From the sequence record PZ445498.1: a DNA stretch of 64,000 nucleotides; one strand, written 5' to 3'. Positions 4,017 to 37,406 of this stretch are shown here, piece after piece. How positions within the stretch are numbered: the first letter of the stretch is position 1; each line of letters begins with the position of its first letter. This stretch comes from a phage. Below the pieces are notes generated by a model. That model was not told the origin of the DNA. It worked only from the letters and a program-made list of their open reading frames with translations, and made no database searches. Position numbers and translations under genes: made by a program.

Positions 4017-4784
4017 TTATTCAGCAGCCGCAGCTTTTGCATCCAGTTTAGCACGCTTAGCGGCACCATCATAGTCCTTAGCAACCAGACCACGACGAGA
4101 CAGCATAGATTTAACACCGCGCTCAGACTTACCAGTTTTCTCAGCGATCTCAGCAACAGTCATGTTAGCCAGATCCAGACCTTCTAACAGATCTTCACGA
4201 GTTTTAGCACTTGAAGTTTCCTGTACCGGCATAGCAGCGATACGACCTTCACGAAGCAGGCTCAGAGCTTTACCACGGATCTGCTTAATATTGCGACCGA
4301 AGTGAGCAGCGATAGCTTCAATAGTAGCACCAGCAACAACCTGATTAACGAAATCAGTTTCTTCGTCAGGAGTGAAGGAACGAACAGCAGCAGCTTTTTC
4401 AGTTGGCTTAACAGAAGCGGTCATTTCCAGACTCAGGATCTTACCCTGTACCTGCTTAGCACCGAACTGACCACCAGCTACAGCAGCAGCGATTTCAGCG
4501 TAAGTATACTGACCAGCATGAGCGTTCAGGAAATCAACCAGTTCAGCTTCTTGTTCAGGAGTCCACGGGGATTTCTGTACTTCGTTAGCTTTCTGTACTT
4601 CGAAACCTTCTTTACGCAGCTTAGAGCCAACAGAGCGAGCGGTAACGTCTTTACCAGTCTCGGTAGCCAGTTCAGCAGCGATAGCAGCTACTTGTTCTTG
4701 AGAGATTACAGCAACACCCAGAGCAGTGGCTTTTGCTTTCAGAGACTCGGTTACACCTTCTACGTTCCAGTTCAGTTTAGACAT
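4017..4784 (-). CDS. Ala/Lys-rich putative DNA-binding protein (possibly T5 D5-like)
   Basis: 255 aa ORF with highly expressed-type codon usage and GGAG RBS; product assignment is a guess. Confidence 0.45.
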   Translation of the reverse strand: MSKLNWNVEGVTESLKAKATALGVAVISQEQVAAIAAELATETGKDVTARSVGSKLRKEGFEVQKANEVQKSPWTPEQEAELVDFLNAHAGQYTYAEIAAAVAGGQFGAKQVQGKILSLEMTASVKPTEKAAAVRSFTPDEETDFVNQVVAGATIEAIAAHFGRNIKQIRGKALSLLREGRIAAMPVQETSSAKTREDLLEGLDLANMTVAEIAEKTGKSERGVKSMLSRRGLVAKDYDGAAKRAKLDAKAAAAE

Positions 4785-5559
4785 TATTATTTTTCTCCAA
4801 TAGTTCTTTAATCGACAGGATTTCTATCCCATTCGTTTCGGCTTTCTTATAAGATGAGGAAGAACGTTTTGATTCATCCTCACAGATTAGGTATTTGACG
4901 TCTTTGGTAACGGACTTCTTAACCGTATATCCTAGACTTTCTAAATAGTTTGTTGCATCCGTTCGATTTGCAAAATCTTGCAAAGATCCGGTAATACAGA
5001 CCGTGATTCCATTTGGCTGGGCAACTAAATCATCAGTAATGATGATATCAGCTTTAGCACCTCGAATACCAGTTGAGAATTTCCACGGTAATTCAATAAC
5101 ATCCTTGCCTTGTGGGGAATTTAGCCAGGTTTTGTAATTTTCTCCAGCCTTGCCGTCAGCCTTCACATCGTGGAAGCTAGTGCAATTTTGGGACAGTTTC
5201 TTTGCTGCAACCTCTCCAATAAGAGGAATTCCTAAAGAACCGAGAACTGAACCAAAGTCAATGTCTCCGCGAACCTTAGTATTTAACTCGCTAATCAACT
5301 TAGTGGCAACCTTGCTACCCACAGCTCCGACCAAATCTTCTTCGGTCAGGTAAAACAGTTCTGAGATCTTAGTCAGTTCCAGCTTCTCAATAGTTTTTGG
5401 GCCAAAGCCCTTTAACTTCATTTTTGTGCAGAAGTTCTCGATTAACTTACTTGATTGCGCTGGACAGTTGGACTTATTCCTACAGAATAATTGCCCGTTG
5501 ACAAGATCTAGCTTAGAACCACAAGAGGGACATTGTGTTGGAATTTCGATTTTCATCAA
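4777..5559 (-). CDS. NAD-dependent DNA ligase, C-terminal fragment (Zn-finger, HhH, BRCT-like)
   Basis: CPSCGSKL...C..C zinc ribbon, helix-hairpin-helix and BRCT-like tail; own promoter and RBS upstream. Confidence 0.75.
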   Translation of the reverse strand: MMKIEIPTQCPSCGSKLDLVNGQLFCRNKSNCPAQSSKLIENFCTKMKLKGFGPKTIEKLELTKISELFYLTEEDLVGAVGSKVATKLISELNTKVRGDIDFGSVLGSLGIPLIGEVAAKKLSQNCTSFHDVKADGKAGENYKTWLNSPQGKDVIELPWKFSTGIRGAKADIIITDDLVAQPNGITVCITGSLQDFANRTDATNYLESLGYTVKKSVTKDVKYLICEDESKRSSSSYKKAETNGIEILSIKELLEKNNNV

Positions 5560-5586
5560 ATTTCTTCCTTATCAATTTATATAAAT

Positions 5587-5615
5587 ATTATAGCAAGTAT
5601 TTAAGCATTTAGCAA
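5587..5615 (-). promoter_or_regulatory. early promoter (minus) for ligase C-terminal fragment
   Basis: Reverse complement reads TTGCTA-17-TATAAT followed by ATTTATATAAATTGATAAGGAAG leader and ATG 5559. Confidence 0.7.
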
Positions 5616-5758
5616 CTACAATTTTAACTAACTTTGCTTACCCTCGCCATAACTTTCTATCCCTCAACTGAATGATAATAGTATATACCTAAGCGGCGAA
5701 AATGTCAATAACCACTTTATAATTCCGACATGGTAAACGGGTAGCAAAGGGTTACGAA

Positions 5759-6733
5759 TTAGTCGTATACTCGCTCTACTATACAAGGGATTACACCACC
5801 AGCACGAATCACTCGAATCTGGCAACCGATCTCTAAATCGAGAGCGTTAATATAATCAACGTTATTAAGAGTTGCTTTAACGATTGTGGCATCATCAATA
5901 ATCACCGGCTCGAAATAACCAACTGGAGTTACTTTACCAGAAGCCCCTACTTGCCATTCAACTTTAACAAGTGTGGTAATTTCGCCTTCTTCATCCTCTT
6001 TAATAGCAAATGCACCACGAGGAAATTTATTAGTCCAACCTTCACGGAAGAATTTATTGTTGTCGTTAATACGAACAACTTTACCGTCCGTCGGAATCCA
6101 TTTAAAAAAGGAACGAACATTAACAACTGTCAAGAAGTTCTCATTCTCTAGCCAAAGCATATCTTTTAAATAGGCTTCTGTAATACCGACTGTTTCCGCT
6201 GAACACTGTATACCATATGCAACGAAGATTAAACCACCTTCACCAATACGTTGCATGAAATCATCGCTGTCTTTCAGGTTAATAGCACCCGAAGCGTAGT
6301 TACGTTTGTTCTCTACTTCTTTAGTAATGAGAACTTCACCAGTGATTTGAGTTGGTACTTTTTGGGAAATAGTTTTGGGGATGTTCAGCATTTTAACATT
6401 ATGCGTTACATCATTCCCTAGAATACCGTTACCACGAGTTAACGCTTGAACAAACTCACCATTAATATATAATAGAGAAATCGCACAACCATCTAACTTA
6501 TCAGTTTCAACCTGACCAAGTGGGTTGAATGGAGCTTTATCACCACGATCGTAATAGACTTTCTGCAAAGAATACATACGATACAAATGAGGGATATCAC
6601 CTTTCGGTCCGATTTCTTCCTCTAGTGGGAATCTTTTAATCAGACGATCATATTCTTCATCGGAAATAAGACTCATTCCCTGGTAGTACGCTTCTTGACA
6701 ACGTTTAATAAAGTCTTTTACATTATTCATCAT
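5759..6733 (-). CDS. NAD-dependent DNA ligase, N-terminal adenylation-domain fragment
   Basis: KLDG adenylation lysine motif and OB-fold region; ends ~200 bp upstream of the C-terminal fragment ORF. Confidence 0.75.
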   Translation of the reverse strand: MMNNVKDFIKRCQEAYYQGMSLISDEEYDRLIKRFPLEEEIGPKGDIPHLYRMYSLQKVYYDRGDKAPFNPLGQVETDKLDGCAISLLYINGEFVQALTRGNGILGNDVTHNVKMLNIPKTISQKVPTQITGEVLITKEVENKRNYASGAINLKDSDDFMQRIGEGGLIFVAYGIQCSAETVGITEAYLKDMLWLENENFLTVVNVRSFFKWIPTDGKVVRINDNNKFFREGWTNKFPRGAFAIKEDEEGEITTLVKVEWQVGASGKVTPVGYFEPVIIDDATIVKATLNNVDYINALDLEIGCQIRVIRAGGVIPCIVERVYD

Positions 6734-13692: not shown

Positions 13693-14232
13693 TTATACCT
13701 TAAGTTTCTGAAGAGCCTTACACATTTCAAGATTTGGACTAAACTCCAGCATATAGCTGATAGCGTTTAAATCTTGAAGGTTTATTCCAGTCCTGCCGTT
13801 TACAATAACAGAAGGAAATTGATACATCATAGCACCAGCATCATCTAGGACACACCAATGCTTGAGCTTATATTTTTCTACAAAACGTAAAACAGAATTA
13901 CCCCGAGATAAACCACCTCCAGTAAAGTCTGTTGTACCAAGAAAACGATCGATCAAACCGAGTCCGGTCATAATCTGAACGTTCTCCATTTCATTTCGTA
14001 CAGAAAACCATGAAGATACCCCAACAATCATTATTGGGGGTGGCTTAAGAAAGTTCTGAAAAGCCTGGAGTAATGGCTTGTAAACCCAATCACCACCAAA
14101 GAATAGCTTCTCACTATCTGGAGCATGATGGTGAGAGATGCTCGAATTGAGCACCCCATCAATATCCAGGAAAATCACAGGAGTATTACTTATTTCCACC
14201 AGTAGCATCCCACGTCCAGACTTTAACTTCAT
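13693..14232 (-). CDS. HAD-superfamily phosphatase-like protein
   Basis: HAD motif I FLDIDGVL near the N-terminus. Confidence 0.55.
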   Translation of the reverse strand: MKLKSGRGMLLVEISNTPVIFLDIDGVLNSSISHHHAPDSEKLFFGGDWVYKPLLQAFQNFLKPPPIMIVGVSSWFSVRNEMENVQIMTGLGLIDRFLGTTDFTGGGLSRGNSVLRFVEKYKLKHWCVLDDAGAMMYQFPSVIVNGRTGINLQDLNAISYMLEFSPNLEMCKALQKLKV

Positions 14233-14371
14233 CAGTAAAAGGAACTGGAACCTTCAATTCACCTTTACCCCACATAACAGATAGGAACAGAGAATAAATG
14301 GTAATCATACCGATTAGGTTGACAAACCATACTAGACCTTTCCAGATACCCTTAAAAATCTTCTTCACCAT
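14186..14371 (-). CDS. hypothetical small membrane protein
   Basis: Start at ATG 14371 with AGGAGGG RBS; hydrophobic segment LVWFVNLIGMITIYSLFL. Confidence 0.4.
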   Translation of the reverse strand: MVKKIFKGIWKGLVWFVNLIGMITIYSLFLSVMWGKGELKVPVPFTDEVKVWTWDATGGNK

Positions 14372-14534
14372 ATTCTCCCTCCTTAATAAGGAACTCTTTC
14401 CATTCTGCTGTATCCTCATAGATAACGCAGAAATCATCACTCTTCCATGAGAAGTCATCAGTAGCAAATTCGAAACGGTAGCACCAACTACCATCTGGCC
14501 ATATTAAAAGATCACACATGCTTTTCTGGGACAT
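14352..14534 (-). CDS. hypothetical small protein
   Basis: Start at ATG 14534 with GGAGGG RBS; overlaps Sir2-like gene 3' end. Confidence 0.4.
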   Translation of the reverse strand: MSQKSMCDLLIWPDGSWCYRFEFATDDFSWKSDDFCVIYEDTAEWKEFLIKEGEYGEEDF

Positions 14535-15363
14535 AAATATTTCCCTCCATAAAAGCTTCAACTTGATCAATAAAGTGTTTATTACCAAAAACTTCGGCAG
14601 CTCCAGCACGCCATACAGTAACACCACGTTTCTCATACTCAAGCTGTTCGTCATAACGAACTTGTGGGTTAACAACCATCATCTTAGTTCCACGACATAC
14701 AGCAGGAAATAATTCCCAGTTGAAGTTGATAACTTGGTTACTACAACCCACCACAATAACCATGTCATTGCTAGTAAGAGTATCAAACAGGTTGATTTGA
14801 CCCATGTACCACGGAGCTGTCTCACCAAAGAACACCACGTTTGGTTTTACCCATTCGTAATCTTCAGGGGCAATCGCAGTATACCCAACATCTTCGATGA
14901 TTTGATTGCGACCCTGACGATAGATCACCTCTTTCAAGTACCCGTGAGCGTGAATTATTTCATCACGAGGGATACCAGCACGTTCCAGAAGGTCATCAAC
15001 GTTAGTAGTGAAGTTCTTCACGCTATCCGCACCATAACGCTGGAACCATTCTGCAATTCGCAGATGGGCAATGTTAGGCTCAACAGTCTGTAGTTCCTGA
15101 CGACGCATGTTGTAGAACTCATGAGTCTTGAGATACAGATCGTTACCATCTTCATCAATGCCAGGGAAACGAGCACTGAAGTAGTTAGGATCATCTTCAC
15201 CACAGAAGCGACGGAAGCCAGCTTCAAAGTTAGGCAAGCTACATACTTCCTCTAGATCGTACTCATCCCACAAGGATTTCCCACTAGCAGTATCAGTACG
15301 GAAAGCACGAACACCACTATCTACACTCAAACCTGCACCACTAACAACGATTAGTCTACGCAT
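14512..15363 (-). CDS. Sir2-family (sirtuin-like) NAD-dependent protein
   Basis: Sirtuin motifs GAGLSVDSGVRAFR, FTTNVDDL and HG. Confidence 0.65.
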   Translation of the reverse strand: MRRLIVVSGAGLSVDSGVRAFRTDTASGKSLWDEYDLEEVCSLPNFEAGFRRFCGEDDPNYFSARFPGIDEDGNDLYLKTHEFYNMRRQELQTVEPNIAHLRIAEWFQRYGADSVKNFTTNVDDLLERAGIPRDEIIHAHGYLKEVIYRQGRNQIIEDVGYTAIAPEDYEWVKPNVVFFGETAPWYMGQINLFDTLTSNDMVIVVGCSNQVINFNWELFPAVCRGTKMMVVNPQVRYDEQLEYEKRGVTVWRAGAAEVFGNKHFIDQVEAFMEGNIYVPEKHV

Positions 15364-33372: not shown

Positions 33373-33447
33373 CGGGGTGTAGTCTAAGGGATAGGCAGGA
33401 GTCTTCTAAATTCCTTTATGCAGGTTCGAATCCTGTCACCTCGGCCA
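33373..33447 (+). tRNA. tRNA-Arg (anticodon TCT)
   Basis: Acceptor CGGGGTG/CACCTCG, D stem GTCT/AGGC, anticodon arm GGAGT-CTTCTAA-ATTCC, T arm GCAGG-TTCGAAT-CCTGT, GCCA 3' end. Confidence 0.8.
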
Positions 33448-33480
33448 ACTTTAATAACTGTAACTAAACAAAGGAAATAT

Positions 33481-34425
33481 ATGTTTACTAAAAACACTAA
33501 AGAACTAACTTCTGAGCAAAAAGTAATTCGTACTATTAAACGTTGGGGTGTTGGTGCTGCTGTTGGTCTTGGTGCTCTTATTCTGGCTCTCAATTCCTAT
33601 ACAGTTGTTCAGGATGGTACTGTTAAGACCCAAACCTTCCTGGGTAAAGTTAGCCCTAATCCTGTATTGCCAGGCTTCCATATTGTTAACCCATTTGCTT
33701 CTTTTGATACTTTTAGTACGAAAGATATTTCCATGAAACTGGATAAACTTCAGGTGCCTAGCCAGGATAAGTTTAAGTCTACTGTTGACATTACCGTTAT
33801 GTTGCAGTTTGATGGTGCTAAAGCTCCTATGAACCGTGTTAACGCAGGTACTCAGGATCAAGCTCTGAACAAGTACGTTGAAGAGAAGATGCTGTCTACG
33901 ATTCGTGAGTTTGGTAAGTCTGTACCAAAAGCACAAGATCTGTTCGACGCTAAGATTCAGGCTCAACTGCAAACCGCTATTCAGCAAGAAGTAGAAGAGT
34001 ACGCGCGTCCTTATGGCTACACCGTTAAGCAAGTATTCCTTCAGGATATTACTCTGCCACCGGTAATCATGGAACAGGTACAGAACACTAAAGTTCGTGA
34101 AGAACAAGTTAACGCTGCAAAAGCTGAACTAGCTCGTGTTGAACAAGAAGCACAGCAGAAAGTTAAGCAAGCTGAAGCTGATCGTTCTGCTCGTGAAAAT
34201 ATGGCAGTAGCTAACGAACGTGACGCAGATGCTAAACTGTACGCAGCTAAGAAAGAAGCTGAAGCTAACGCCGCTCTGCAACGTACCATTACTCCTGAAA
34301 TGATTCGTTGGAAGCAGCTGGAAGTTGAAATGCTTCGTGCTGAAAAATACCAAGGTGGTGTACCGCAGACTGTTGTTGGTACTGGCTACGATGGTCAAAT
34401 GATCATGGATATGCGTAACAAGTAA
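33481..34425 (+). CDS. SPFH/band-7 (prohibitin/HflK-like) membrane protein
   Basis: N-terminal TM anchor then PHB-like domain and long coiled-coil; start ATG 33481 (track ATG 33418 lies inside the tRNA). Confidence 0.7.
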   Translation: MFTKNTKELTSEQKVIRTIKRWGVGAAVGLGALILALNSYTVVQDGTVKTQTFLGKVSPNPVLPGFHIVNPFASFDTFSTKDISMKLDKLQVPSQDKFKSTVDITVMLQFDGAKAPMNRVNAGTQDQALNKYVEEKMLSTIREFGKSVPKAQDLFDAKIQAQLQTAIQQEVEEYARPYGYTVKQVFLQDITLPPVIMEQVQNTKVREEQVNAAKAELARVEQEAQQKVKQAEADRSARENMAVANERDADAKLYAAKKEAEANAALQRTITPEMIRWKQLEVEMLRAEKYQGGVPQTVVGTGYDGQMIMDMRNK

Positions 34426-34448
34426 TAGTTACACGTAATCTTCGAACC

Positions 34449-34485
34449 AAGCCCGCGTTCCCTCCGAGAGCGCGGGCTTTTCTGT
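34449..34485 (+). terminator. rho-independent terminator after SPFH gene
   Basis: Hairpin AAGCCCGCG...CGCGGGCTT followed by TTTCTG. Confidence 0.65.
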
Positions 34486-34629
34486 ATTTAAGGCAAAAGA
34501 AAAGCCCATAAGTTATTCAACTAAGGTCTTTAGTATTTAATTCTTTAGAATCGCATACTATTGTTGCTGCAACAACGTGCTACCATTAAATGCCCTGAGA
34601 TTTTTCCACTAAAAAGTTTAAAAATTCGT

Positions 34630-34658
34630 TTGCTTGAATGCTAAATTCTCTGTATAAT
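34630..34658 (+). promoter_or_regulatory. early promoter for nadR-pnuC
   Basis: TTGCTT-17-TATAAT plus TTATAAATTTGAGAGAGGAATC leader. Confidence 0.75.
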
Positions 34659-34688
34659 ATATTTATAAATTTGAGAGAGGAATCAAAC

Positions 34689-35744
34689 ATGATTAAGACT
34701 GGTCTAGTAATTGGTAAGTTCGCACCCTTAACGCGTGGCCATATTAACCTAATAAATACAGCAGCAACTATGTGTGAACGAGTTATTATTGTAGTTAGTC
34801 ATGATAATCGTTGGCTGGATAAGCAGAACACACGTGATCAGGAAGTATTACAGTTAAAGAATCGTCTTCGTTGGTTAGAACAAACTTACGCGGATATTGA
34901 GCACGTTTCGGTAGAGTATATTATTGAAGATGATATTCCTGAATATCCGAATGGTTGGCCGGAATATGCTAGAATCCTTAATGAAAATTACGGACATTTA
35001 CCTGAGATCACCATTTTCTCTAGCGAACTAGACTATGATGCAGAATATAAGAAATATCTGCCGAAGTTTGGTCATTATATTGTAGATTCTGATCGGACTC
35101 GTGTTCCAATCTCAGCTACAATGATTCGTAATGATCTTATGAAGTATTGGGAGTTTCTTCCTAGCGTAGTTCGTAAAGATTACGTGCGTAGGGTTGTAAT
35201 CATTGGGACTGAAAGCTCAGGAAAGACTACTTTAACAAAATACCTTGCGAAGCTATACAACACTTCGTGGGTAGAAGAATATGGTCGAACGTATTGTGAA
35301 GTTGATCTAGTTGGTAACGAAAATCTGCTTACCAGCGAAGATTATAGTAAAATTGCGTTCAGACACAAAGAGCTAGAGTTTGAGGCAGAACGTACTGCAA
35401 ATAAGATCATGTTTGTGGATACAAATGCTTTTATTACTGAGTTCTACCACAGACTTTATGAACATCGTAAGAACCCTGTGGTTACAGCAATTGCAAAAGA
35501 AGAACATTACGATTTAGTAATTGTTCTAGCGCCCACTGTCAAGTGGGTAGATGATGGTTTACGTATTAACTCCGATCGTTCAATTACTTCTGAACTGTTC
35601 GAGCAGATGAAGAAAGAATTTCCAAATCAGTTCCCTGAAGGGCGTACTGTGTACATCGACTCCCCGGACTACAAAGTTCGTATGGACGAAGCAGTAAACG
35701 CAGTAGACTGGCTGATTCATCACTTTAACGTTGGAGAGTTTTAA
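34689..35744 (+). CDS. nadR: NadR-like bifunctional NMN adenylyltransferase / ribosylnicotinamide kinase
   Basis: Nucleotidyltransferase motif GKFAPLTRGH, ISATMIR motif, C-terminal P-loop GTESSGKTT. Confidence 0.8.
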   Translation: MIKTGLVIGKFAPLTRGHINLINTAATMCERVIIVVSHDNRWLDKQNTRDQEVLQLKNRLRWLEQTYADIEHVSVEYIIEDDIPEYPNGWPEYARILNENYGHLPEITIFSSELDYDAEYKKYLPKFGHYIVDSDRTRVPISATMIRNDLMKYWEFLPSVVRKDYVRRVVIIGTESSGKTTLTKYLAKLYNTSWVEEYGRTYCEVDLVGNENLLTSEDYSKIAFRHKELEFEAERTANKIMFVDTNAFITEFYHRLYEHRKNPVVTAIAKEEHYDLVIVLAPTVKWVDDGLRINSDRSITSELFEQMKKEFPNQFPEGRTVYIDSPDYKVRMDEAVNAVDWLIHHFNVGEF

Positions 35745-35745
35745 T

Positions 35746-36423
35746 ATGACTAACTATCTCGTAAATGACTTTAAAAACTGGAAACCTCTGGAATATCTGT
35801 GGCTGTTCATAGCGGTTGCCTTCATTAGTTTAGCTAACTATAATGGTACACCTCTAGATTGGGCTACTGCGATAACCAACGTAGTTTGTGTTATTTTGGT
35901 TGCTAAAGGACGTGTTTCTAACTATATTTGGGGCTTAGTTGGTGTTCTTACCTATGGTATTACAGCTTTAAACGCAGATCTTTATGGTAACGCTGCACTA
36001 AACCTGCTATACTACGTTCCTATGCAGTTTTATGGAATGTACTTATGGCATAAAAATAAGCCAAGTAATCTGCCAGATGTTCCAACTAAGATTCTGACTA
36101 AAGTCCAAGCTCTGCTGACTCTAGGGATTCTAGCAGTAGCCACGTTAGGGTATGGTAGTTTCTTAGCTACTACGGCTGATCCATTCCCAATGTTGGATGC
36201 ATTTACTGCGGTAGGTAGTGTGATCGCTATGTGGCTTATGGTTAAGCAGTATGCCGAGCAGTGGCTGATCTGGATTGCTATTAACATTGGTACTGTGTAC
36301 ATTTGGCTTGTAACTACTCAATCTACAGGTGCATCTTATGCAATCCTAGCAATGTGGCTAGTATTCTTAGGTAACTCTATTATGGGAGCCTATAAAGGAT
36401 ACTTTGTACGCGTTAACAAATAA
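35746..36423 (+). CDS. pnuC: PnuC-like nicotinamide riboside transporter
   Basis: Multi-pass membrane protein with PnuC-like ...LYYVPMQFYGMYLW... region; translationally coupled to nadR. Confidence 0.75.
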   Translation: MTNYLVNDFKNWKPLEYLWLFIAVAFISLANYNGTPLDWATAITNVVCVILVAKGRVSNYIWGLVGVLTYGITALNADLYGNAALNLLYYVPMQFYGMYLWHKNKPSNLPDVPTKILTKVQALLTLGILAVATLGYGSFLATTADPFPMLDAFTAVGSVIAMWLMVKQYAEQWLIWIAINIGTVYIWLVTTQSTGASYAILAMWLVFLGNSIMGAYKGYFVRVNK

Positions 36424-36431
36424 AGTAGTTA

Positions 36432-36458
36432 TAGCCCTCTAAGCGAGGGCTATTATAC
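36432..36458 (+). terminator. rho-independent terminator after pnuC
   Basis: Hairpin AGCCCTC-TAAGC-GAGGGCT followed by ATTATA; T-run weak. Confidence 0.55.
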
Positions 36459-36470
36459 AGAAATTTTCAC

Positions 36471-36499
36471 TTGCTTAATATAGAAAATTTCTATATAAT
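36471..36499 (+). promoter_or_regulatory. early promoter
   Basis: TTGCTT-17-TATAAT plus TTATAAATTCGAGAGAGGAATC leader. Confidence 0.75.
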
Positions 36500-36529
36500 A
36501 TATTTATAAATTCGAGAGAGGAATCAAAC

Positions 36530-36826
36530 ATGAAACGCATTGTACTTGCACTGACTCTAGTATCTACTTCTGTATTTGCTGCTCCGCAACAGGAACTTTG
36601 TCAAGTTCAGGTTTGTAATAAGTTAGAACGATTTACTTTGGATATTTGGTCACACATTAAAGATAATATGGGTGAACAGTGTTTTGATATTGTTCTGCCA
36701 AAAGAGCAGGCTGTTCCTGGTGCTATTCTTAGCTCAGAGTCACGTTGGTGGCAGGGTTCTTCTATCAATCCAACTAAGAAGTCAGTGACACGTATCAAAC
36801 AAGTATATCAGTGCAAGGTTCAGTAA
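36530..36826 (+). CDS. hypothetical secreted protein
   Basis: Signal peptide MKRIVLALTLVSTSVFA; 98 aa. Confidence 0.5.
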   Translation: MKRIVLALTLVSTSVFAAPQQELCQVQVCNKLERFTLDIWSHIKDNMGEQCFDIVLPKEQAVPGAILSSESRWWQGSSINPTKKSVTRIKQVYQCKVQ

Positions 36827-36834
36827 AATTTCAC

Positions 36835-36863
36835 TTGCTTAATGTCGAAATTTTCTGTATAAT
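36835..36863 (+). promoter_or_regulatory. early promoter for HNH gene and first tRNAs
   Basis: TTGCTT-17-TATAAT plus TCATAAATTCGGAAGATTAGG leader. Confidence 0.7.
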
Positions 36864-36896
36864 ATATTCATAAATTCGGAAGATTAGGAACTATTT

Positions 36897-37406
36897 ATGC
36901 TAGACTATGAGTCTATACTTTATAGATTCCGTTTAGAAGATGGTGTGCTGGTGTGGAATCCGCTCTCCGGAAACTCCAGAGAGGAGAAGATATTTAATAC
37001 TAAGTTTGCCAATAAACCTGCGGGATCTTTGCACAAAAGCTCTGGGTATATCAGAGTTAACGTTGATCACCAAGATTACTTAGCTCATATCATAGTATTT
37101 ATACTATATTATGGGTATAGGCCGGAAATGATTGATCATAAAGACTGCAATAAGTTAAACATACATCCTTTAAATTTAAGAGCAGCGGATAGTACCACTA
37201 ATACTCATAATGCTAGTAAATCTTCTAGGAATACTAGCGGATTTAAGGGAGTATCCTACCACAAAGCATCTGGTCAGTGGCAGGGTAGAATAATGTTTAA
37301 AGGTAAGTCATACTCCGCAGGGCTGCACAGTACTCCTGAAGCAGCAAATGAAGCTCTAATTCAACTGAGAGAGAAACTTCATGGGGAATACGCCCGAAAT
37401 AATTAA
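36897..37406 (+). CDS. HNH homing endonuclease with AP2-like domain
   Basis: Paralog of 21899-22417 (IDHKDCNKLN, GEYARNN tail); directly upstream of the tRNA cluster. Confidence 0.7.
   Translation: MLDYESILYRFRLEDGVLVWNPLSGNSREEKIFNTKFANKPAGSLHKSSGYIRVNVDHQDYLAHIIVFILYYGYRPEMIDHKDCNKLNIHPLNLRAADSTTNTHNASKSSRNTSGFKGVSYHKASGQWQGRIMFKGKSYSAGLHSTPEAANEALIQLREKLHGEYARNN

What the first reader, a model, noticed from the sequence alone, without database searches (positions are those of the whole stretch)
34630..36423. Phage-encoded NAD+ salvage pair (NadR-PnuC), plus a Sir2-like gene elsewhere
A single promoter drives a NadR-like bifunctional NMN adenylyltransferase/ribosylnicotinamide kinase and a PnuC-like nicotinamide riboside importer, coupled by a TAATATG overlap. 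A Sir2-family NAD-dependent protein is encoded at 14512-15363. Together these would let the phage import nicotinamide riboside and rebuild NAD+ during infection, the kind of function that could offset host NAD-depleting defences.
Basis: partly seen in the sequence, partly recalled or inferred. Interest (0 to 1): 0.6.

Follow-up and report, generated by a model that had tools for sequence, protein, structure and literature searches.

The report
Known phage NAD+ salvage operon (NARP3)
This T5-like phage carries a two-gene operon that imports nicotinamide riboside and turns it into NAD+; it is real, but a 98-99% identical pair from phage TrudiRoth was characterised in 2026 as "NARP3", a counter to NAD+-depleting bacterial defences, so it is already known.

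Summary
The window is a T5-like phage (Epseptimavirus). One sigma-70 promoter (34630-34658) lies between two terminator hairpins and drives a NadR-like gene (real start 34689, stop 35744, 351 aa) and a PnuC gene (35746-36423, 225 aa). Profile searches pass the curated cut-offs for NadR and PnuC.

The NadR-like protein lacks the DNA-binding domain of bacterial NadR. It is 347/351 identical to Bas30_86 (crystal structures 9X6F/9X6H). The PnuC is 220/225 identical to Bas30_87. Every mutagenised residue the paper names for both proteins is conserved.

Yan et al. (Sci Adv 2026, PMC13464706) showed that this pair, NARP3, imports nicotinamide riboside, converts it to NMN and then NAD+, and rescues phages from Sir2-HerA and DSR1. 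The pair had already been predicted in 2022 and 2024. The finding is therefore correct but already known.

Corrections:
- TAATATG is stop, one base, then start. It is not an overlap.
- The Sir2-like gene (14512-15363) is real, but it consumes NAD+. It lies 19 kb away on the other strand, next to a HAD phosphatase, a pairing predicted to act in RNA repair. It occurs in far more phages than NARP3 does.

Side notes:
- A split NAD+-dependent DNA ligase is also encoded in the window.
- A small secreted protein recurs next to NadR-PnuC in three phage lineages.

The parts
34449..34479 (+). Intrinsic terminator hairpin ending the upstream SPFH/Band 7 gene (33418-34425); it isolates the operon from upstream transcription
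   Evidence: 12-bp stem with 8 GC pairs, followed by a T run.: -21.8 kcal/mol.
34630..34658 (+). Sigma-70 promoter, TTGCTT-17 nt-TATAAT, with an A+T-rich upstream stretch; first of three copies of the same promoter/leader module
   Evidence: Sequence. Repeat family D1. Near-identical to the annotated promoter P15a of phage BF23.
34673..34688 (+). Short leader with ribosome-binding site GAGAGAGG, 8 nt before the ATG; too short for a riboswitch
   Evidence: No Rfam family above threshold.
34689..35744 (+). nadR-like gene, 351 aa. N-terminal NMN adenylyltransferase domain (GKFAPLTRGH, ISATMIR) and C-terminal ribosylnicotinamide kinase domain (Walker A GTESSGKTT). No helix-turn-helix domain. Orthologue of Bas30_86.
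   Evidence: 9X6F, E 3.9e-240; 347/351 identical.
35746..36423 (+). pnuC gene, 225 aa, nicotinamide riboside transporter; orthologue of Bas30_87; N45, Q94 and N180 conserved
   Evidence: 4QTN, E 9.9e-33; 220/225 identical.
36431..36451 (+). Hairpin after pnuC with a weak T run; a likely leaky terminator
   Evidence: -14.9 kcal/mol. The consensus scan did not call it.
36471..36826 (+). Second copy of the promoter/leader (36471-36529), then a 98-aa secreted protein with four invariant cysteines (36530-36826; equals Bas30_88, phrog_6894). Function unknown. A recurrent neighbour of NadR-PnuC, not shown to be part of the system.
14512..15363 (-). Sir2-like protein, 283 aa. NAD+-binding and catalytic motifs intact (GAGLS 9-13, TTNVD 119-123, H140, FFGE 178-181). 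No zinc-binding cysteine pairs. A separate module and an NAD+ consumer.
13693..14232 (-). HAD phosphatase of the 'Swiss Army Knife RNA repair' type, 279 nt downstream of the Sir2 gene on the same strand
   Evidence: PF18143, 6.7e-18. The Sir2+HAD neighbourhood is described for T5-like phage SP15 in PMC9503650.
4777..6733 (-). Split NAD+-dependent DNA ligase: adenylation + OB subunit (5759-6733) and HhH + BRCT subunit (4777-5559). A second phage-encoded NAD+ consumer, which releases NMN.
   Evidence: Annotated as NAD-dependent DNA ligase (two CDS) in the S116 relative.

Best explanation
The locus is an intact orthologue of NARP3, the third phage NAD+ reconstitution pathway, carried by a T5-like (Epseptimavirus) phage. 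A strong host-type promoter transcribes a two-gene message early in infection. PnuC inserts into the inner membrane and lets nicotinamide riboside (NR) in. The NadR-like enzyme traps NR by ATP-dependent phosphorylation to NMN in its C-terminal kinase domain, then adenylates NMN to NAD+ in its N-terminal domain. This tops up NAD+ in the infected cell, so that defences which kill infection by hydrolysing NAD+ (Sir2-HerA, DSR1) lose their effect, provided NR is available outside the cell.

Shown here: the gene structure, the family assignments, near-identity to the characterised proteins, conservation of every mutagenised residue the paper names, and purifying selection.

Shown by others on the 98-99% identical proteins: NR binding and transport dependence, both enzyme steps, NAD+ restoration, and rescue of phages.

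Inferred: that the same happens during natural infection by this phage.
For: - Family assignment: Pfam and NCBIfam hits lie above curated cut-offs. PHROG nicotinamide-nucleotide adenylyltransferase 4.9e-153 and PnuC-like 1.3e-72.
- Identity: the best solved structure is 9X6F/9X6H, which is Bas30_86 (E 3.9e-240, full length). NadR is 347/351 and PnuC 220/225 identical to TrudiRoth Bas30_86/87, and the operon DNA is 97.3% identical.
- Residues: the mutagenised residues named in the paper's text are all present, namely K10, F11, S37, E80, P84, G89, F110, S112, D115, V139, I141, E230 and D275 in NadR, and N45, Q94 and N180 in PnuC. Of the modelled NR-pocket residues, only K168 differs, conservatively, as R168.
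- Motifs shared with H. influenzae NadR 1LW7 and N. mucosa PnuC 4QTN are conserved.
- Selection: codon differences against TrudiRoth are mostly synonymous (nadR 22 to 4, pnuC 11 to 5).
- Operon anatomy: one promoter, terminators on both sides, and a 1-nt intergenic gap.
- Experiments on Bas30_86/87 are in PMC13464706.
- Earlier predictions of the same operon: PMC9503650 and bioRxiv 10.1101/2024.02.11.579819.
Against: - No experiment exists for this phage or for any native T5-like phage. The authors could not obtain TrudiRoth.
- The pathway depends on external NR, with a half-maximal effect at about 4-6 uM in minimal medium. Its benefit in nature therefore depends on NR supply.
- The closest sequenced genome, vB_EcoS_Ace, has a stop codon at Ser74 of nadR. 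Many T5-like phages carry other genes or nothing at this position. The module is therefore dispensable.
- One modelled NR-pocket residue differs (K168R).
Confidence: 0.88

Rival explanations
1. The main native role is housekeeping rather than counter-defence. The operon would supply NAD+ for the phage's own NAD+-consuming enzymes. In particular, the adenylyltransferase domain would re-adenylate the NMN released by the phage's NAD+-dependent DNA ligase during rapid replication. This does not exclude the counter-defence role.
For: The same window encodes a split NAD+-dependent DNA ligase and a Sir2-like NAD+ consumer. NAD+-dependent ligases release NMN (established biochemistry), and Bas30_86 converts NMN plus ATP to NAD+ in vitro.
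Against: - T5-like phages without the operon at this position still carry the Sir2 gene, for example SSP1 and BB1. The Sir2 family occurs in 980 phage records, against about 200 for this operon. These enzymes therefore do not need it.
- NMN recycling would not require a transporter, yet pnuC is always retained next to nadR, and both genes were needed for rescue.
- Bas30_86 binds NMN weakly (6.8 uM, against 34 nM for NR).
Confidence: 0.1
2. The Sir2-like gene and the NadR-PnuC pair form one functional system. Sir2 would use or regulate the NAD+ that the pair makes.
For: Both are in one phage genome and both handle NAD+.
Against: - They lie 19.3 kb apart on opposite strands in different transcription units.
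- Sir2 is instead linked to a HAD RNA-repair-type phosphatase, a neighbourhood predicted to clean up RNA 2'-phosphate ends.
- Sir2 homologues occur in about five times more phage records than the operon, including T5-like phages that lack it at this slot.
- Sirtuin chemistry releases nicotinamide, which a kinase/adenylyltransferase acting on NR cannot recycle (established biochemistry).
Confidence: 0.05
3. The genes are decaying cargo, or they transport and activate a different vitamin. Other Pnu-family members carry thiamine or riboflavin.
For: The nearest genome, Ace, has a nonsense codon in nadR. Pnu-family transporters for other vitamins exist (listed, PMC5749112).
Against: - Both ORFs are intact, with all functional residues and an excess of synonymous change.
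- The PnuC equivalog model is passed threefold.
- The 97.8% identical Bas30_87 binds NR with Kd 0.66 uM, and mutation of N45, Q94 or N180 abolishes binding.
Confidence: 0.02

Closest known systems
NARP3 (Bas30_86/Bas30_87 of Escherichia phage TrudiRoth; Yan et al., Sci Adv 2026, PMC13464706; PDB 9X6H, 9X6F)
   Same: - Same genus of phage, same genomic slot, and the same gene order: SPFH gene, nadR-like, pnuC, 98-aa gene.
- Near-identical promoter and leader (one base differs in the leader).
- 98.9% and 97.8% protein identity; no helix-turn-helix domain; every mutagenised residue the paper names conserved.
   Different: - Four substitutions in NadR (I34V, V73I, R168K, R260S; window residue first) and five in PnuC (A25V, P36A, I116V, V120A, T191A).
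- The hairpin after pnuC is in the opposite orientation.
- The window has an extra HNH/AP2 homing-endonuclease gene (36897-37406) before tRNA-Ser that TrudiRoth lacks.
Bacterial NadR (E. coli/Salmonella trifunctional NadR; H. influenzae NadR, PDB 1LW7) and PnuC (N. mucosa, PDB 4QTN)
   Same: Same two catalytic domains and motifs (1LW7 E 4.8e-55). Same transporter fold family (4QTN E 9.9e-33). Same NR to NMN to NAD+ chemistry.
   Different: - No N-terminal DNA-binding domain: the alignment to the enterobacterial NadR model starts at position 65 of 411.
- The two genes are fused into one operon, whereas in E. coli nadR and pnuC are at separate loci.
- No host NadR operator sequence at the phage promoter.
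NARP2 (NadV/Nampt plus NMN adenylyltransferase, e.g. vibriophage KVP40) and NARP1 (Adps plus Namat)
   Same: All are phage-encoded two-enzyme routes that rebuild NAD+ and blunt NAD+-depleting defences.
   Different: NARP2 starts from nicotinamide and PRPP. NARP1 starts from ADP-ribose and nicotinamide, which are the breakdown products left in the cell. NARP3 instead needs an external precursor (NR) and a transporter, and does not recycle the breakdown products.
Phage sirtuin + HAD 'RNA-repair' neighbourhood typified by Escherichia phage SP15 (Iyer et al. 2022, PMC9503650, section 3.7.3); applies to the Sir2 gene only
   Same: A T5-like phage, with a Sir2-family gene and a Swiss-Army-Knife-type HAD phosphatase just downstream on the same strand.
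   Different: Only about 52% protein identity to the Tequintavirus versions. The proposed KptA-like removal of RNA 2'-phosphates is a prediction and has not been tested.

Membership tests
NARP3 (phage NAD+ reconstitution pathway 3) | NadR-like enzyme with NMN adenylyltransferase and ribosylnicotinamide kinase domains but no N-terminal helix-turn-helix domain | tested here: met
   alignment to NadR model positions 65-407 of 411; full-length match to 9X6F.
NARP3 (phage NAD+ reconstitution pathway 3) | PnuC-type transporter gene immediately downstream on the same strand, in one transcription unit, in a phage genome | tested here: met
   1-nt gap; one promoter, flanking hairpins; Epseptimavirus.
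NARP3 (phage NAD+ reconstitution pathway 3) | Residues shown by mutagenesis to be required: NadR K10, F11, S37, E80, P84, G89, F110, S112, D115, V139, I141, E230, D275; PnuC N45, Q94, N180 | tested here: met
   all present at the same numbering. The modelled pocket residue K168 is R168.
NARP3 (phage NAD+ reconstitution pathway 3) | Orthology to Bas30_86/87 | tested here: met
   347/351 and 220/225 identical. Same flanking genes.
NARP3 (phage NAD+ reconstitution pathway 3) | NR uptake, NR to NMN to NAD+ conversion, restoration of NAD+, and rescue from Sir2-HerA/DSR1 | not testable with these tools
   Demonstrated only for Bas30_86/87 expressed from plasmids. Never tested in a native T5-like phage.
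Bacterial trifunctional NadR (enterobacterial type) | N-terminal helix-turn-helix repressor domain | tested here: not met
   the first 64 model positions are unmatched, and the protein starts at the adenylyltransferase domain. The TIGR01526 score of 273 is below its cut-off of 341.
Bacterial trifunctional NadR (enterobacterial type) | (H/T)xGH and ISxTxxR adenylyltransferase motifs; Walker A kinase motif | tested here: met
   TRGH 15-18, ISATMIR 141-147, GTESSGKTT 173-181.
PnuC / Pnu transporter family | Profile match above the curated cut-off, and similarity to the solved NR transporter | tested here: met
   PF04973 148 bits against 27.3; TIGR01528 120.2 against 42.45. 4QTN E 9.9e-33.
Sirtuin (Sir2) superfamily; the gene at 14512-15363 | Rossmann NAD+-binding motifs (GAGxS, xxNxD) and catalytic histidine | tested here: met
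   PF02146 78.7 bits against 24. GAGLS 9-13, TTNVD 119-123, H140 aligned to the CobB catalytic HG.
Sirtuin (Sir2) superfamily; the gene at 14512-15363 | Zinc-binding module with two CxxC-type cysteine pairs, as in CobB and eukaryotic sirtuins | tested here: not met
   The only cysteines are at 41, 54, 207 and 223. The CobB cysteine-bearing segment aligns to a gap.
CobB-type protein deacylase (equivalog) | Score above the NCBIfam equivalog cut-offs | tested here: not met
   The best is 91.9 bits against a cut-off of 243. It is a Sir2-superfamily member but not a CobB orthologue.

The most novel reading that the evidence does not exclude
The 98-aa secreted, four-cysteine protein encoded just after pnuC (36530-36826; Bas30_88; phrog_6894) may be an unrecognised periplasmic accessory of NARP3-type loci, for example helping to obtain or protect NR outside the cytoplasm. 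It sits within about 0.7 kb of NadR-like and PnuC genes in three unrelated phage lineages with different gene orders. Across those lineages it is more conserved (53-64% identity) than NadR or PnuC (about 35-39%). The NARP3 paper does not mention it.
Probability: 0.12. Interest if true: 0.45.

Novelty: already known. Interest (0 to 1): 0.15.

Why it matters
NAD+ depletion is one of the commonest ways bacteria abort phage infection, and phage-encoded NAD+ rebuilding is the matching counter-move. This locus is a textbook copy of the third such pathway, so it adds another natural carrier rather than new biology.

Its practical value is that T5-like phages with and without the operon at one defined slot are natural test pairs. 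They could supply the one experiment the published work lacks: deletion in the native phage, on defence-carrying hosts, with and without nicotinamide riboside.

Tried and rejected
1. Host NadR operator at the phage promoter. TGTTTA-N6-TAAACA with up to 2 mismatches gave 7 hits in the window against 6.3 expected, none near 34630. Rejected.
2. An NAD+ riboswitch or other structured leader. Rfam with permissive thresholds over 34300-36950 gave only two sub-threshold chance hits, and the leader is only about 30 nt. Rejected.
3. Foreign base composition of the cassette. GC is 0.35-0.41 across the operon against 0.40 for the window. No signal.
4. Fold of the 98-aa neighbour. The AlphaFold model from 39 homologues has mean pLDDT 75, one helix and four long strands. 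Foldseek against the PDB gave nothing better than E 0.37. There is no Pfam family and no source name among 70 clusters. Function stays unknown.
5. Obligatory linkage of that protein to NadR-PnuC. It is linked in T5-like phages, in Eneladusvirus-like jumbo phages and in phages of about 145 kb. It is not linked in Aeromonas T4-like phages, pEt-SU-like phages and at least eight other contexts. So it is recurrent, not obligatory.
6. Sir2 as part of the salvage system. Rejected on linkage, distribution and chemistry.
7. The longest-ORF start at 34638. Rejected because it lies inside the promoter.
Full report
**What the window is.** The 2.1 kb around the finding matches 408 phage records. The best matches are T5-like phages of E. 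coli and Salmonella: 99.3% to vB_EcoS_Ace, and 97-98% to many members of the genus Epseptimavirus, family Demerecviridae. The rest of the window fits this. It holds 26 tRNA genes, ribonucleotide reductases, a DNA polymerase and a split NAD+-dependent ligase, in the order found in Salmonella phage S116.

**The observation.**
- The NadR-like ORF can be read from ATG 34638, but that codon lies inside the promoter. The real start is ATG 34689, eight bases after GAGAGAGG. This gives 351 aa and matches the CDS annotated in relatives and the crystallised protein.
- PnuC runs from 35746 to 36423 (225 aa).
- The heptamer TAATATG is present, but it reads stop TAA (35742-35744), one T, then ATG (35746-35748). 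The genes are adjacent and do not overlap. A GGAGAG lies 7 nt before the pnuC start.
- Profile searches are unambiguous. For the first protein: Pfam AAA_28 (1.2e-31) and CTP_transf_like (4.4e-07), and the NCBIfam NadR model at 253.9 bits against a cut-off of 201. For the second: Pfam NMN_transporter (3.6e-43) and the PnuC equivalog at 120.2 bits against 42.45. For the gene at 14512-15363: Pfam SIR2 (6.6e-22). The PHROG families agree.

**Operon anatomy.**
- A 12-bp GC-rich hairpin with a T run (34449-34479, -21.8 kcal/mol) ends the upstream SPFH/Band 7 gene.
- The promoter is TTGCTT (34630-34635), 17 nt, TATAAT (34653-34658), behind an A+T-rich stretch.
- This promoter and leader is the first of three copies in the region, at 34620, 36461 and 36825. 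The 39-nt stretch running from the -10 hexamer through the leader to the ATG occurs exactly twice in the window: before nadR and before the next gene.
- It is almost base-for-base the annotated promoter P15a and ribosome-binding site of phage BF23.
- After pnuC comes an 8-bp hairpin (36431-36451, -14.9 kcal/mol) with a poor T run, so some read-through is likely.
- The leader is about 30 nt. There is no Rfam match and no host NadR operator.
- 'One promoter drives both genes' is therefore well supported by sequence, but has not been measured.

**What it is.**
- The NadR-like protein aligns to positions 65-407 of the 411-position enterobacterial NadR model, so it lacks the N-terminal DNA-binding domain.
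- Its best solved relative is PDB 9X6F/9X6H (E 3.9e-240, end to end). Next come H. influenzae NadR 1LW7 (4.8e-55), 8X7F (9.2e-52) and L. lactis NadR 6GYE (1.6e-43). It carries the TRGH and ISATMIR adenylyltransferase motifs, the GTESSGKTT Walker A motif and the WVDDGLR segment.
- 9X6H and 9X6F are Bas30_86 of Escherichia phage TrudiRoth.
- I fetched that locus (MZ501109) and compared it. NadR is 347/351 identical (I34V, V73I, R168K, R260S; window residue first). PnuC is 220/225 identical. The downstream 98-aa protein is 96/98 identical. The DNA is 97.3% identical over 1.86 kb including the promoter.
- Most differing codons are synonymous: nadR 22 synonymous to 4 non-synonymous, pnuC 11 to 5. 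Both genes are therefore under purifying selection.

**How it works.** Yan et al. (Sci Adv 2026, PMC13464706) named Bas30_86/87 'NARP3'. They showed the following.
- Bas30_87 is a trimeric membrane protein that binds nicotinamide riboside (Kd 0.66 uM). N45A, Q94A or N180A abolishes binding and function.
- Bas30_86 phosphorylates NR to NMN and adenylates NMN to NAD+ in vitro. Mutations in either site, among them K10A/F11A, F110A, S112A/D115A, E80A/P84A/G89A, E230A and D275A, cripple NAD+ regeneration.
- Co-expression of both genes, but neither alone, restores NAD+ and NADH depleted by Sir2-HerA. It raises T7 and lambda plating 10^3- to 10^4-fold and also counters DSR1.
- Rescue depends on external NR, with a half-maximal effect at 3.6-5.6 uM.
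- Every one of these residues is present at the same position in the window's proteins. The only change in the modelled NR pocket is K168 to R168.
- The mechanism is therefore transferred with high confidence. PnuC admits NR; the kinase domain traps it as NMN; the adenylyltransferase domain makes NAD+.
- What remains inferred is the role in natural infection. The authors state that they could not test NARP3 in its native phage.

**Prior art.**
- Iyer et al. 2022 listed phage NadR among the NAD+ synthesis enzymes that counter NADase effectors (PMC9503650).
- Osterman et al. 2024 pointed out the NadR-PnuC operon in BASEL phages as a probable further reconstitution pathway.
- GenBank and RefSeq records already annotate both genes.
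- The finding is correct and already known.

**A variable slot.** In T5-like phages the interval between the SPFH gene and tRNA-Ser holds different cargo behind the same promoter.
- This phage and TrudiRoth: nadR, pnuC and the 98-aa gene. This phage also has an HNH/AP2 homing endonuclease at 36897-37406.
- BF23 and SP15: a three-gene opposite-strand operon plus a gene annotated as primase-related (trn2.1).
- S124, also an Epseptimavirus: only trn2.1.
- About 200 of 50,697 phage records carry this allele of the operon.
- The closest genome, Ace, has TCG to TAG at codon 74 of nadR.
- The module is an accessory. That fits a conditional, defence-related benefit.

**The Sir2-like gene.** It is real, but it belongs to a different story.
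- It keeps the NAD+-binding and catalytic motifs (GAGLS, TTNVD, H140, FFGE) and the FYNMRR segment, which matches the YxxR of CobB and SIRT5.
- It has no zinc-binding cysteine pairs, and it falls far below every CobB equivalog cut-off.
- It lies 19.3 kb from nadR on the opposite strand. A HAD phosphatase of the 'Swiss Army Knife RNA repair' type lies 279 nt downstream of it (PF18143, 6.7e-18).
- Iyer et al. described exactly this sirtuin-HAD neighbourhood for the T5-like phage SP15. They proposed a KptA-like, NAD+-dependent removal of RNA 2'-phosphates. That proposal is untested.
- Homologues occur in 980 phage records, including T5-like phages that lack the operon at the slot.
- Sirtuins consume NAD+ and release nicotinamide, which the NR route cannot reuse (established biochemistry). 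The phrase 'together these would rebuild NAD+' therefore does not apply to Sir2.

**Other NAD+ users.** The window also encodes a split NAD+-dependent DNA ligase (5759-6733 and 4777-5559). Such ligases release NMN, which the NadR-like enzyme can re-adenylate. A housekeeping contribution is therefore possible. The points against it as the main role:
- The transporter is always retained next to nadR.
- Both genes were needed for rescue.
- The enzyme binds NMN weakly.
- Ligase and Sir2 persist in relatives without the operon.

**A side observation.** The 98-aa protein after pnuC has a signal peptide, four invariant cysteines and an ESRW(Y/W)QGSSINPTKKSVTR motif.
- It has no Pfam family, name or structural match.
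[quoted passage not shown] The gene order differs between them.
- Many other copies are not so linked.
- This is the only element here that the literature has not discussed. The evidence for a functional tie is weak.

**Verdict.** Novelty: already known. Interest is low.

Noticed in passing
window 36530-36826 (+); also L009 4001-4315, L010 4001-4315, L034 4001-4306, L035 4001-4324: A 98-aa secreted protein with four invariant cysteines (Bas30_88, phrog_6894; no Pfam family, name or structural match). It recurs beside NadR-like and PnuC genes in T5-like phages, Eneladusvirus-like jumbo phages and phages of about 145 kb, with different gene orders. It is unlinked in many other phages. It is more conserved across these lineages (53-64%) than NadR or PnuC (about 35-39%).
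   Followed up: partly
window 13693-15363 (-): A zinc-less Sir2-like gene followed 279 nt later by a Swiss-Army-Knife-type HAD phosphatase, with two small ORFs between them. This is the sirtuin-HAD neighbourhood that Iyer et al. 2022 predicted to be an NAD+-dependent RNA-end repair system; it has never been tested. RefSeq mislabels the HAD gene as 'Sir2' in phage S116.
   Followed up: partly
window 34620-34692, 36461-36533, 36825-36897 (+): Three direct copies of one promoter/leader module (homologue of BF23 promoter P15a), each heading a separate cargo gene. The first two bracket nadR-pnuC. Recombination between copies would delete or swap cassettes precisely, which fits the variable content of this slot in T5-like phages.
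   Followed up: partly
L001 6290-7345 (Escherichia phage vB_EcoS_Ace, closest genome): nadR in Ace is split by a single TCG to TAG change at codon 74. This is either a natural knockout of NARP3 or a sequencing error. The window's copy is intact.
   Followed up: partly
window 36431-36451 versus L005 4737-4757 (TrudiRoth): The hairpin after pnuC is present in TrudiRoth as its exact reverse complement (loop TAAGC versus GCTTA, identical stems). The palindromic element has been inverted.
   Followed up: no
window 36897-37406 (+): An HNH_3 + AP2 homing-endonuclease gene sits between the 98-aa gene and tRNA-Ser. It is absent from TrudiRoth, S116 and Ace at this position. BF23, SP15 and S124 carry an unrelated gene there, annotated as primase-related (trn2.1).
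   Followed up: partly
L008 1651-3273 (BF23) and L006 1855-3276 (SP15), the slot equivalent to window 34480-34620: Tequintaviruses carry an opposite-strand operon of 326-, 138- and 64-aa proteins of unknown function where this phage has NARP3. It may be an alternative accessory or counter-defence cargo.
   Followed up: no
window 4777-6733 (-): The NAD+-dependent DNA ligase is split into an adenylation + OB subunit and an HhH + BRCT subunit. It is a second phage NAD+ consumer, and its NMN by-product is a substrate of the phage NadR-like enzyme.
   Followed up: partly
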